Source of the DNA: the human T2T-CHM13v2.0 reference genome, Homo sapiens
Length of the DNA stretch: 64,000 nt
Reading direction: 5' to 3' (one strand)
Assembly (NCBI RefSeq): GCF_009914755.1
Contig: NC_060936.1
Shown here: one piece after another, positions 7,440-13,098 of the stretch
How the letters are laid out: each line of letters starts with the position of its first letter
Numbering within the stretch: position 1 is the stretch's first letter
Program-made: the position numbers and the translations under genes
Notes under the pieces: model-generated
The model's input: only the letters and a program-made list of their open reading frames with translations
What the model was told of the DNA's origin: nothing
Database searches by the model: none

Positions 7440-9000
7440 ACAGGACAGACATTCTCTAAAAGATTTTAATCTAGGGAAAAATCAGGACAGGATTAGTATT
7501 TTGGAAAGATTTGTTTTGTTGCAATTAGGAAGTGTATCCTAGGGGTAGACTGAAGACAGGCTGACCAGTTAAAAAGTTACTGTAATGTAAGAGGTCACAG
7601 GAACTTGGGCTAAGGTGGTAGAGAAGGAATGGAAAAAATGAGATGAAGAGTTTGTAAATTAAAGTATTTACAAAACTGGGTTACCAAATAGAAATAGGAA
7701 GTGGAAAAGAAGATTCTAAATTGACTAAGGATTCTAGGACAAATATAAGTAGGTGTTTTGTTTGCTTATTTTTACCTGTTTCATACATTGATGTACCTAT
7801 TCTAAGTGTTCAGAATGGTGTCTGGCCTGTAGGAAACACTCAATAAATATTTACTGAAAGAATAAATGACTGAGTAGGTGGCCTAGGTAAAACTAGCTGG
7901 ATGGTGGTGCTATAAATGGAGAGGTATAAAAGCAGAAACAGGGTGAGGATGTGAGAAAAATGGAATGTGTAATTTTAGAAATCTTAAGTTTTTGGCAACT
8001 TGGAAATATTAATTTAGAAATTCTTTCTGGGCTTTTGGATAAACAGCTTTAAACTGCATGACAAATAAAAGTTTGAGCTGAAAAATTGGGGGATTGTTAG
8101 CATATAGGACGGTTAAAGTGGTGACCATGATTCAGATTATCTTGGAAAAATATGGTGACTAGGAAGAGCCAAGGGCCAAGGGTAAATCTTTAAGGAATGC
8201 TAATATTTAAGGAGTGTTTAGGGGAAAAGGAAGTTACTAATGAGAGCAAGTCTCCCAAGAAAGTAAGAACACTGGGATACATGATGTTGTAGAGATTCAA
8301 GGTAAAAGGGTTTCACAAAGGCAAAGTTGAACAATAGTGATCAATGCCCAAAATAGAAACAGCAAAATTTGCTATATATATGGCAGTTAGGAGGTTCATT
8401 CATCTACTCTTTCATCTTGATTCATTTAATGAGTCAGCATTTTTTACTATGTACCAGACAGGCATTTAGTTCAGCATTTTGCTAGGGAAGGGTTGGGGTG
8501 ACAATATTACTATACAAGACAGACGTGCTCATGCACTCAAAGATTCTGCAGTCTAGTAAAAACAAGATAAAATAATGAGTAGTGAAAAAAAATGAGTAGT
8601 GAAATGCATTAATGACAATATTTGTTTTATTTCTAAAACTTATGAAAGAATACATTTAGTAAGAAAAAGTATGAAATAATAGAGTTCTGAAGGGATAGAG
8701 AGGTCAGGTACAACAGATAGGAAGATACATAATATTTTCTTTCGGGAGGTAACTTTTAAGCTGGGTGTTGAAGCATGAGAAAGAGCCAGCCATGAGAAGA
8801 TCAGGTGATAGGGCATTATGGGATGAGGGAAAGATTAGTGCAAAGGCCCTAGGAATGTACTCGGTGAGTTGGGTAGGAGCATTGTAGATTAGGGAGCAGG
8901 TGATGGGAGAGGAGGTCAGGAGTAGGTGGGGACTCCACCATGTAGAGATTTATATGTCAGGTTAAGAAATCTCAATTTATAAAACATTAAAGAATAACCA
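7440..9000 (-). mobile_element. Cluster of L2 fragments (mostly antisense; short sense 3' end at ~7760-7870)
   Basis: Purine-rich L2 motifs such as agactgaagacaggctgaccagttaaaaagttactgtaat, gcaaaggcccta, ttactatgtaccagac; cactcaataaatatttactgaaagaataaatga on +. Confidence 0.65.
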
Positions 9001-10601: not shown

Positions 10602-10617
10602 ACACATCAGAGCTTTT

Positions 10618-10816
10618 TATTTTTATTCCCCCAGGCTTACATTTTAATAGGGAAACAATAAATGAATACATAAACAAAGGAAGAAATGAACTAGAAAAAA
10701 ATAGGTGGTGGTAAGTGATATCAGAGAATTACATCAGAACAGGGGAGGCGGTAGTAGAATTAGGGCCTAAACAATGGCTTTACTTTTGATGCTGAAGGAT
10801 GACCTTTTTTAAAAAA
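10618..10816 (-). other. L1 3'-transduced segment (L2-like) with ATTAAA and A-tail remnant
   Basis: Lies between the L1 3' end and the left TSD copy; minus strand reads ...ctATTAAAatgtaagcctggggg-aataaaaata-aaaagctctgatgtgt. Confidence 0.85.
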
Positions 10817-13082
10817 ATTATACTTTAAGTTCTAGGGTACATGTGCACAACATGCAGGTTTGATACATAGGTATACATGTGTCATGTTGGTTTGCTGCAC
10901 CCATCAACTCATCATTTACATTAGGTATTTCTCCTAATGCTATCCCTCCCCAGGCCCCCACTCCCCAACAGGCCCCAGTGTGTGATGCTCCCACCCTGTG
11001 TCCAAGTGATCTCATTGTTCAATTCCCACCTATGAGTGAGAGCATGCTGTGTTTGGGTTTGTGTCCTTGTGATAGTTTGCTGAGAATGATGGTTTCCAGC
11101 TTCATCCATGTCCCTGCAAAGGACATGAACTCATCCTTTCTATGGCTGAAGTATTCCATGGTATATATGTGCCACATTTTCTTAATCCAATCTATGACTG
11201 ATGGACATTCGGGTTGGTTCCAAGTCTTTGCTATTGTGAATAGTGCCACAATAAACATAAGTGTGCATGTGTCTTTATAGTAGCATGATTTATAATCCTT
11301 TGGGTATATACCCACTAATGGGATTGCTGGATCAAATGGTAATTCTAGTTCTAGATCCTTGAGGAACTGCCACACCGTCTTCCACAATGCTTGAACTAAT
11401 TTACAGTACCACCAACAGTGTAAAAGCATTCCTGTTTCTCCACATCCTCTCTAGCATCTGTTGTTTCCTGACTTCTTAATGATCGCCATTCTAACTGGTG
11501 TGAGATGGTGTCTCATTGTGGTTTTGATTTGCATTTCTCTGATGACCAGTGATGATGAACATTTTTTCATGTGTCTGTTGGCTGCATAGATGTCTTCTTT
11601 TGAGAAGTGTCTGTTCATATCCTTTGCCCAATTTTTGATGAGTTTGTTTTTTTCTTGTAAATTTGTTTGAGTTCTTTGTAGATTCTGGATATTAGCCGTT
11701 CGTCAGATGGGTAGATTGCAAAAATTTTCTCCCATTCTGTAGGTTGCCTCTTCACTCTGATGGTAGTTTCTTTGGCCATGCAGAAGTTCTTTAGTTTAGT
11801 TAGATCCCATTTGTCTATTTTGGCTTTTGTTGCCATTGCTTTTGATGTTTTAGTCATGAAGTCCTTGCCTAAGCCTATGTCCTGAATGGTATTGCCTAGG
11901 TTTTCTTCTAGGGATTTTATGATTTTAGGTCTAACATTTAAGTCTTTAATCCATCTTGAATTAATTTTTGTATAAGGTGTAACGAAGGGATCCAGTTTCA
12001 GCTTTCTATATATGGCTAGCCTGTTTTCCCAGCACCATTTATTAAATAGGGAATCCTTTCCCCATCTCTTGTTTTTGTCAGGTTTGTCAAAGATCAGATG
12101 GTTGTAGATGTGTGGTGTTATTTCTGAGGCCTCTGTTCTGTTCCATTGGTCTATATATCTGTTTCGGTACCAGTACCATGCTGTTTTGGTTACTGTAGCA
12201 TTGTAGTATACTTTGAAGTCAGGTAGTGCGATGCCTCCAGCTTTTTCTTTTTGCTTAGGATTTTCTTGGCAATGCAGGCTCTTTTTTGGTTCCATATGAA
12301 CTTTAAAGTGGTTTTTTCCAATTCTGTGAAGAAAGTCACTGGTAGCTTGATGGGGATGGCATTGAATCTATAAATTACTTTGGGCAGTATGGCCATTTTC
12401 ACAATATTGATTCTTCCTATCCATGAGCATGGAATGTTCTTCCATTTGTTTGGGTCCTCTTTTATTTCGTTGAGCAGTGGTTTGTAGTTCTCCTTGAAGA
12501 GGTCCTTCACATCCCTTGTAAATTGGATTCCTAGGTATTTTATGCTCTTTGTAGCAATTGTGAATGGGAGTTCACTCATGATTTGGCTCTCTGTTTGTCT
12601 GTTATTGGTGTATAGGAACGCTTGTGATTTTTGCACATTCATTTTGTATCCTGAGACTTTGCTGAAGTTGCTTATCAGCTTAAGGAGATTTTGGGCTGAG
12701 ACGATGGGGTTTTCTAAATACACAATCATGTCACCTGCAAACAGGGACAATTTGACTTCCTCATTTCCTAATTGAATACTATTTATTTCTTTCTCTTGCC
12801 TGATTGTCATGGCCAGAACTTCCAACACTTTGTTGAGTAGGAGTGGTGAGAGAGGGCATCCTTGTCTTGTGCCAGTTTTCAAAGGGAATGCTTCCAGTTT
12901 TTGCCCATTTAGTATGATACTGGCTGTGGTTTTGTCATATATAGCTTTTATTATTTTGAGATACATTCCATCAATACCCAGTTTATTGAGAGTTTTTAGC
13001 ATGAAGGGCTGTTGAATTTTGTTGAAGGCCTTTTCTGCATCTATGGAGATAATCATGCGGTTTTTGTCGTTGGTTCTGTTTA
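10817..13082 (-). mobile_element. 5'-truncated L1PA (L1PA5-like), ~2.27 kb
   Basis: Antisense 3' UTR ttatactttaagttctagggtacatgtgcacaac; ORF2 peptides in the ORF track; 16-bp TSD acacatcagagctttt at 10602-10617 and 13083-13098. Confidence 0.97.
11019..13082 (-). pseudogene. Frameshifted L1 ORF2 remnant (RT domain to C-terminal Cys-rich region)
   Basis: Three ORF pieces (12190-13086, 11615-12295, 11019-11429) with [19 protein letters not shown] and LHCWW; the catalytic FADD motif reads FAGD. Confidence 0.95.
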
Positions 13083-13098
13083 ACACATCAGAGCTTTT

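What the first reader, a model, noticed from the sequence alone, without database searches (positions are those of the whole stretch)
10602..13098. L1 3' transduction: the TSD encloses the L1 plus ~180 bp of foreign DNA with its own poly(A) signal
Seen: acacatcagagctttt is duplicated perfectly at 10602-10617 and 13083-13098. The right copy is followed by AA, giving the canonical L1 endonuclease site TTTT/AA. The L1 ends at ~10817, about 200 bp short of the left TSD. On the minus strand the extra segment (10804 to 10628) carries ATTAAA (10648-10643) 15 nt before an A-rich tail remnant (10627-10618) that abuts the TSD. The host L2 reads continuously once the whole block is removed. Established: L1 read-through moves 3' flanking DNA. 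Inference: 10628-10804 tags the source L1 locus. Because it is L2-like, repeat masking would probably hide it as an unrelated L2 fragment.
Basis: partly seen in the sequence, partly recalled or inferred. Interest (0 to 1): 0.8.

Follow-up and report, generated by a model that had tools for sequence, protein, structure and literature searches.

The report
Old L1 carrying chr20 flanking DNA
A truncated L1 retrotransposon on chromosome 12 carried about 180 bases copied from chromosome 20 when it inserted, an ordinary example of a well-known process, although the parent L1 is no longer present at the chromosome 20 site.

Summary
A perfect 16-bp duplication at a TTTT/AA site encloses a minus-strand, 5'-truncated L1 (10804-13082). 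It also encloses about 180 bp of non-L1 DNA (10626-10803) that ends with ATTAAA, 17 nt of spacer and a short A-rich tail.

The extra segment has exactly one other copy, at chr20:9,006,281-9,006,463 (88% identity; 15 substitutions in 178 aligned bases). There it lies inside continuous older DNA. The shared stretch starts at a TT|AAGA endonuclease-type site. It stops 17 nt after a conserved ATTAAA. Its divergence fits twice the L1's own branch length, about 3.6-4.1%.

These results fit RNA read-through from an L1 that once sat at the chr20 site. However, no L1 lies within 10 kb on either side of that site today, and no sibling insertion was found.

The junction T6-A6-G is not a source poly(A) tail. 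It is a recurrent L1 3'-end variant (133 genomic copies) that lacks AATAAA.

The "host L2" claim could not be verified.

Verdict: a 3' transduction from a lost source is most likely (about 0.75). It is an ordinary event and of low interest.

The parts
13083..13098 (-). Target-site duplication, copy at the L1 5' end. It reads AAAAGCTCTGATGTGT in L1 sense. With AA at 13099-13100 it forms the TTTT/AA endonuclease site on the + strand.
10817..13082 (-). 5'-truncated L1PA-type body (2,266 bp) that starts inside the reverse-transcriptase domain and ends ...CTTAAAGTATAAT.
   Evidence: RVT_1 E 4.6e-27, profile positions 61-205. Identity of 91-93% to 39 other L1 copies scored out of 13,709 first-look candidates.
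10804..10816 (-). T6-A6-G variant L1 3' terminus. It replaces the usual AATAAA-bearing end and is not a poly(A) tail made at this locus.
   Evidence: The same TATAAT+T-run end occurs at 133 places in the genome, against 7,764 for the standard end. In 40 other copies the A-run is 5-7 nt in 31 and the next base is G in 25.
10626..10803 (-). Foreign segment copied from chr20:9,006,281-9,006,463. AAG at 10806-10804 is shared with chr20 and with the L1 end, so the 5' limit is ambiguous by 3 nt.
   Evidence: Only 2 places in the genome, this one and chr20. 15/178 substitutions and 5 gap events. The reciprocal search returns chr12 as the only long match.
10643..10648 (-). ATTAAA polyadenylation signal, also present at the homologous chr20 position.
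   Evidence: the signal ends 17 nt before the end of the shared stretch
10618..10625 (-). Remnant of the poly(A) tail of the inserted RNA (TAAAAATA). It runs into the A's of the duplication.
   Evidence: homology to chr20 stops just before it
10602..10617 (-). Target-site duplication, copy at the 3' end of the whole insertion.

Best explanation
This is a fixed, old L1 3' transduction whose source L1 no longer exists at the parental locus.

Inferred steps:
- An L1PA element with the variant T-run/A-run 3' end, which has no AATAAA of its own, once sat at chr20 in the site ...CTAATT|AAGATCATCC.
- Its transcript ran on into the flanking old repeat.
- The transcript was cleaved and polyadenylated about 17-19 nt after an ATTAAA already present there.

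Shown by structure:
- That RNA was reverse-transcribed at a TTTT/AA nick on chr12.
- The copy was truncated at its 5' end inside the RT domain.
- It was sealed with a 16-bp target-site duplication enclosing L1, about 180 bp of chr20 DNA and the tail.

Inferred: the source allele was never fixed or was later lost. The event dates to when the L1 body was new, about 4% divergence per lineage ago.
For: (1) One perfect 16-bp duplication at TT|AAAA encloses the L1 and the extra DNA together.
(2) The extra DNA has a single paralogue in the whole assembly, on chr20. There it is embedded in continuous unrelated older sequence on both sides, so chr20 is the ancestral context and chr12 the derived partial copy.
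(3) The 5' limit of the shared stretch on chr20 is the hexamer TTAAGA, in the orientation an L1 insertion would need. In 20,064 nt around it, such sites fall at 0.444% of positions, or 1.78% allowing four adjacent boundaries.
(4) The 3' limit lies 17 nt after an ATTAAA conserved in both copies. A canonical signal 10-30 nt upstream is found at only 3.04% of positions there. In published somatic transductions, 274 of 349 endpoints have a signal in that window (PMC13009371, passages).
(5) The timing fits. The segment differs from chr20 by 15/178 = 8.4% (JC 0.089 +/- 0.021). The L1 terminal branch is about 3.6% over 884 nt against 5 relatives and 0.041 over 430 nt, so twice the branch is about 7-8%.
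(6) The L1 end here carries no AATAAA or ATTAAA, which gives a reason for read-through.
(7) In two other T-run copies with clear duplications (L034, L035) the T-run and a short A-run are followed directly by the duplication. The chr12 junction looks the same if AAG[G]TCATCC is the source's duplication.
(8) About 25% of new L1 insertions carry transductions, and truncated reference elements whose source L1 is absent from the reference are described (PMC13009371, passages).
Against: - No L1 homology (blastn E<=1e-3) anywhere in chr20:8,996,400-9,016,463, so the defining co-transcription cannot be shown.
- No sibling insertion carries the same tag. That search scores only the best candidates.
- There is no clear source poly(A) between the L1 and the chr20-derived DNA. 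The A6 there is the usual length for this L1 variant. 72% of published partnered transductions show two tails (PMC13009371, passages).
- AAG at the junction is shared by the L1 variant end and by chr20. This blurs the 5' limit and weakens the endonuclease-site argument.
- The L1 age estimate is biased low because the relatives were chosen for similarity.
- No outgroup genome could be examined.
Confidence: 0.75

Rival explanations
1. Two events. The L1 inserted alone with the 16-bp duplication. Later a 5'-truncated retrocopy of a polyadenylated chr20 transcript was inserted in trans, in the same orientation, at the junction of the L1 end and its short A tail. Its own duplication consisted only of A's plus G.
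For: The final structure is identical. T6-A6-G followed by the insert, an A-rich run and AAAAG... can be read as a 5-6 nt duplication AAAAG. T6A6 is itself an endonuclease-type sequence. The AAG shared with chr20 could be 5'-junction microhomology. That such microhomology is common is recalled, not read here.
Against: It needs two independent events at one spot. It also needs retrotransposition of an otherwise unknown chr20 transcript. On this reading the 5' limit on chr20 falls on TTAAGA only by chance (1.78%). The segment's divergence matches the L1's age rather than any later time. A 5-6 nt duplication is short for L1-mediated insertion.
Confidence: 0.1
2. One event with a template switch or RNA ligation. 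Reverse transcription began on the poly(A) tail of a chr20-derived RNA and then continued on the 3' end of an L1 RNA, giving a chimeric insertion.
For: A single duplication encloses both parts. No poly(A) lies between them. The L1 part has an intact 3' terminus and the other part is 5'-truncated. AAG microhomology sits at the joint.
Against: Catalogued L1 chimeras carry the foreign RNA 5' of the L1, with the L1 supplying the 3' end (bioRxiv 10.1101/2025.02.02.635956, passages: 253 small-RNA, 113 Alu and 17 mRNA cases). Here the foreign part is 3'. The switch would have to land exactly at the L1 terminus. The TT|AAGA limit on chr20 would be chance.
Confidence: 0.05
3. The extra segment was already at the chr12 locus as part of a host repeat, and the 16-bp repeat is fortuitous.
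Against: The 16-mer is perfect, sits exactly at the L1 5' end and after the A-rich tail, and lies at TT|AAAA. The segment is 88% identical to chr20. The host flanks show no significant similarity to it.
Confidence: 0.01

Closest known systems
L1 3' transduction (Moran 1999; Goodier 2000; Pickeral 2000; Szak 2003). I saw these only in the reference list of PMC4862182. The mechanism is as summarised in PMC9311842 and PMC13009371 passages.
   Same: An L1 with an intact 3' end is followed by unique DNA, a downstream poly(A) signal 10-30 nt before the end, a tail, and one target-site duplication around everything. The copy is interchromosomal.
   Different: The parental locus has no L1 in the complete assembly. 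No second poly(A) lies between the L1 and the tag. The event is old (about 8% divergence from the parent). The L1 end is a T-run/A-run variant without AATAAA.
[quoted passage not shown]
   Same: A truncated, immobile L1 is the only surviving carrier of a tag that points to a source not present in the reference.
   Different: Those are recent, and their sources are polymorphic in living people. Here the source would have been lost roughly at the time scale of ape/monkey divergence (inference).
5' L1 chimeras such as U6/L1, Alu/L1 and mRNA/L1 (bioRxiv 10.1101/2025.02.02.635956, passages).
   Same: Two RNA-derived parts in the same orientation lie within one duplication.
   Different: In those the foreign part is 5' of the L1 and the L1 provides the 3' end and tail. 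Here the foreign part is 3' and provides the signal and tail.

Membership tests
L1 3' transduction | One target-site duplication at an L1 endonuclease-type site encloses the L1 and the non-L1 3' DNA | tested here: met
   A perfect 16-mer at 10602-10617 and 13083-13098, with TTTT/AA
L1 3' transduction | The L1 3' end is complete and in the same orientation as the extra DNA | tested here: met
   ...CTTAAAGTATAAT plus T6A6G, the end shared with 133 genomic copies
L1 3' transduction | The extra DNA ends 10-30 nt after a poly(A) signal and is followed by a poly(A) tail | tested here: met
   ATTAAA at 10648-10643, 17 nt of spacer and the tail remnant at 10618-10625. The chance rate of such a signal is 3.04%
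L1 3' transduction | The extra DNA is a copy of a unique locus elsewhere (the parental flank) | tested here: met
   The single paralogue at chr20:9,006,281-9,006,463, 88% identical and embedded in continuous older DNA
L1 3' transduction | The flank was co-transcribed with a source L1 lying directly 5' of it. A source present in today's reference is corroborating, not required, because sources can be non-reference. | tested here: inconclusive
   There is no L1 homology within 10 kb on either side of the chr20 site. The shared stretch does start at TT|AAGA, where a source would have integrated. Sources absent from the reference are documented (PMC13009371, PMC9311842 passages)
L1 3' transduction | The source's own poly(A) lies between the L1 and the transduced DNA (usual, not universal) | tested here: inconclusive
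   Only A6 is present, which is the normal A-run of this L1 variant (31 of 40 copies have 5-7 A's). 72% of published partnered cases have two tails (PMC13009371 passage)
L1 3' transduction | The L1 and the tag are the same age | tested here: met
   8.4% tag-to-parent divergence against 2 x 3.6-4.1% L1 terminal branch
L1 3' transduction | The orthologous site in an outgroup lacks the L1 and the tag together | not testable with these tools
   No other primate genome is held
   No repeat library is held. An iterative nhmmer seeded with the chr20 copy found only that locus in 265 kb. The host empty site against the chr20 copy is not above shuffles

The most novel reading that the evidence does not exclude
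The T-run/A6 terminus marks a long-lived minority L1PA 3'-end variant that has lost AATAAA. It is integrated with almost no poly(A) tail, as if first-strand synthesis were primed on the internal A6 tract. For such elements, read-through into flanking DNA would be the default way to obtain a real tail. On this reading the chr12 element is a fossil offspring of one such never-fixed source on chr20.
Probability: 0.12. Interest if true: 0.4.

Novelty: new member of a known kind. Interest (0 to 1): 0.15.

Why it matters
By itself it matters little. 3' transduction is textbook L1 biology, and about a quarter of new insertions show it. The case does illustrate two points. An old transduced tag can point to a source locus that holds no L1 even in a complete assembly, so scans that require an L1 at the parent would miss or down-rank it. 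And a tag that looks like old repeat DNA can hide from repeat-based annotation. The recurrent L1 end without AATAAA is a small lead on how L1 3'-end formation varies.

Tried and rejected
- Positive control for read-through in the T-run variant: the 40-nt tag after the L1 in L037 has no second copy at up to 3 mismatches, so no source was shown.
- TSD mapping of the first 12 T-run copies resolved only 2 (L034, L035). Of the other 10, 3 have their L1 5' end outside the fetched locus. The remaining 7 gave no clear duplication: in some the L1 piece abuts more L1-like DNA, an A-run or a shared non-L1 sequence, and others simply showed none.
- I first thought the T-run copies might be one clade with chr12, and rejected this. 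chr12 sides with standard-end copies at 12 of 12 separating columns. L033, L034 and L036 were dropped there because their L1 pieces are shorter than 430 nt.
- Host-L2 test: blastn, nhmmer, an iterative profile and shuffled local alignment were all negative or uninformative.
- I considered a spliced read-through from a distant chr20 L1 and rejected it, because the L1 keeps its complete 3' end and no L1 lies within 10 kb.
- I considered an antisense insert using the T-run as its tail and rejected it, because no signal lies upstream on that strand (read).
- Papers not held: Szak 2003, Pickeral 2000 and the published T2T repeat paper. The T2T preprint's supplementary transduction tables are closed, so I cannot say whether this locus is already listed there.

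Full report
WHAT IS THERE

The 16-mer ACACATCAGAGCTTTT occurs perfectly at 10602-10617 and 13083-13098 and nowhere else in the window, even at 2 mismatches. Shuffled sequence gave a mean of 0.14 matches. The right copy is followed by AA. In the sense of the inserted element (minus strand) the target therefore reads TT|AAAAGCTCTGATGTGT.

Between the copies, read on the minus strand, lie four parts:
- An L1 body running from 13082 to TATAAT at 10817.
- The run T6-A6-G at 10816-10804.
- About 180 nt of non-L1 DNA, down to 10626.
- TAAAAATA at 10625-10618, which runs into the A's of the left repeat.

The body is a genuine L1. An open frame at 12190-13167(-) matches Pfam RVT_1 (E 4.6e-27). The match enters the profile at position 61 of 205 exactly at the element's 5' end, so the copy is truncated inside the reverse-transcriptase domain. 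An 884-nt piece of the 3' end finds 13,709 first-look candidates in the genome. Of these, 40 were scored (one is the element itself), and the other 39 are 91-93% identical.

WHERE THE EXTRA DNA COMES FROM

The 199-nt stretch 10618-10816 has two places in the genome. One is itself. The other is chr20:9,006,281-9,006,463, at 88% identity over query positions 11-191. The tool scores only the best candidates and skips very common words, so 'no other copy' is a lower bound. A closer copy than 88% would still have been found.

The reciprocal search used 571 nt of the chr20 locus. It returns chr12 as the only long match. The other 13 matches are short and hit a different part of the query.

A global alignment gives 15 substitutions in 178 aligned positions (8.4%; JC 0.089 +/- 0.021) and 5 gap events. 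On chr20 the homologous stretch lies inside continuous, unrelated-looking older sequence on both sides, with no tail and no duplication. So chr20 is the original context and the chr12 segment is a partial copy of it.

THE ENDS OF THE COPIED STRETCH

At the 3' end, homology stops 17 nt after an ATTAAA that is present in both copies. On chr20 the next bases are CA followed by a GT-rich stretch. On chr12 they are the A-rich tail. In 20,064 nt of surrounding chr20 DNA, only 3.04% of positions have AATAAA or ATTAAA ending 10-30 nt upstream. This is the mark of an RNA 3' end.

At the 5' end, homology starts at chr20 ...CTAATT|AAGATCATCC. The hexamer TTAAGA is a one-transition variant of the L1 endonuclease site TT|AAAA. 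I recall that set of variants from Jurka 1997, which I did not read here. Such hexamers occupy 0.444% of positions on that strand, or 1.78% if four adjacent boundary positions are allowed.

There is a caveat. The AAG is shared by chr20 and by the L1's own A6-G end, so the true boundary is uncertain by 3 nt.

AGE

Against five close L1 relatives the chr12 L1 differs by 6.2-6.6% (substitutions only). A star-tree estimate of its own branch is about 3.6%. A FastTree run on the last 430 nt gives 0.041. Both estimates are biased low because the relatives were chosen for similarity.

Twice the branch (7-8%) agrees with the 8.4% between the segment and chr20. The segment was therefore copied at about the time the L1 inserted. 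At a neutral rate of roughly 0.17% per million years (recalled, not read here) this is some 20-25 million years ago.

WHAT IS MISSING

No L1 lies next to the chr20 copy. The 2,266-nt chr12 L1 finds nothing at E<=1e-3 in chr20:8,996,400-9,016,463. No other insertion in the genome carries the tag.

THE JUNCTION T6-A6-G

I first read the A6 as the source's poly(A). It is not specific to this locus. The string ending TATAAT plus five T's occurs at 133 places in the genome (reversed-pattern control 0). The standard end TATAAT plus five A's occurs at 7,764 places.

In 40 other T-run copies:
- The T-run is 5-8 nt long.
- The following A-run is 5-7 nt in 31 of 40 (mode 6).
- The next base is G in 25, T in 12 and C in 3.
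- Some copies then have a longer A-rich tail, and others go straight into unique DNA.

In the two copies with clear duplications the T-run and a short A-run abut the duplication directly. These are L034 (12 nt) and L035 (16 nt with one mismatch).

The variant is not one clade with chr12. At 12 of 12 columns that separate eight other T-run copies from four standard-end copies, chr12 sides with the standard-end group. L029 is intermediate, at 9 of 12. Three rows were dropped because their L1 pieces are too short. The closest T-run relatives are L057 (92.3%) and L044 (91.7%).

Whatever its origin, this terminus has no AATAAA or ATTAAA. An element carrying it has no canonical signal of its own.

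MOST LIKELY MECHANISM

An L1 with this terminus sat at the chr20 TT|AAGA site. Its transcript read into the flank and was polyadenylated after the pre-existing ATTAAA. The RNA was then inserted at chr12 by target-primed reverse transcription, with 5' truncation and a 16-bp duplication. The source allele was later lost.

The last three steps are shown by the structure. The existence of the source is inferred.

Published work supports the priors. About 25% of new insertions carry transductions. 274 of 349 transduction endpoints have a signal 10-30 bp upstream. 72% of partnered cases have two tails, so 28% do not. Truncated reference elements whose source L1 is absent from the reference are described (PMC13009371, passages). 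Non-reference sources are also reported in PMC9311842 (passages).

RIVALS

(i) A later, independent retrocopy of a chr20 transcript nested at the L1 end/tail junction gives the same final sequence. It would have a 5-6 nt A-rich duplication and AAG microhomology. It needs two events at one spot, an unknown transcript and a chance TTAAGA boundary.

(ii) A template switch or RNA ligation is possible. However, catalogued L1 chimeras carry the foreign RNA 5' of the L1, not 3' (bioRxiv 10.1101/2025.02.02.635956, passages).

(iii) Pre-existing DNA with a fortuitous repeat is excluded for practical purposes.

THE L2 STATEMENTS

No repeat library is held, and an iterative profile seeded with the chr20 copy found nothing else in 265 kb. 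The computed empty site is not significantly similar to the chr20 copy on either strand. The claim that the host L2 reads continuously is therefore unverified. This is a weak test, because two old copies of one family can be too diverged to align.

NOVELTY

The process is textbook. A TSDfinder-type scan of all 971,811 L1s in this very assembly reported 183 top-confidence L1 3' transductions, plus lower-confidence bins in a supplementary table (bioRxiv 10.1101/2021.07.12.451456, passages). I could not open that table, so this locus may already be listed. I searched the paper library four times, none aimed at this locus or the T-run end, so I make no claim on whether either is in print.

Noticed in passing
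window 10804-10816; loci L026-L037 and L040-L068: A recurrent L1 3' end reads TATAAT-T(5-8)-A(mostly 5-7), often followed by G, and lacks AATAAA. It occurs at 133 places in the genome against 7,764 for the standard end. In two resolved copies it abuts the target-site duplication with almost no poly(A). It occurs on L1 bodies of more than one age group.
   Followed up: partly
L032 (5' junction near locus position 160) and L033 (near 1393): Two T-run L1 pieces are joined, at different L1 positions, to the same non-L1 sequence, which ends at nearly the same base. This could be an element inserted into both, or a chimeric form.
   Followed up: no
L037 (C2:15,136,433-15,136,472) and L052: After the T-run/A-run end come 39 nt (L037) or about 55 nt (L052) of unique DNA containing AATAAA or ATTAAA, and then a real A-run. 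These look like short 3' transductions by the same L1 variant. The L037 tag has no second copy at up to 3 mismatches.
   Followed up: partly
L002 about 1400-1464 (chr20, just 3' of the parental stretch): A different repeat family starts here. 13 short matches (75-95% identity) lie elsewhere in the genome, all to query positions 431-529.
   Followed up: no
window 10602-13098: The insertion lies in an intron of the predicted lncRNA LOC105369677 (hub annotation) in the same orientation. It places an ATTAAA signal in sense within that transcript.
   Followed up: no
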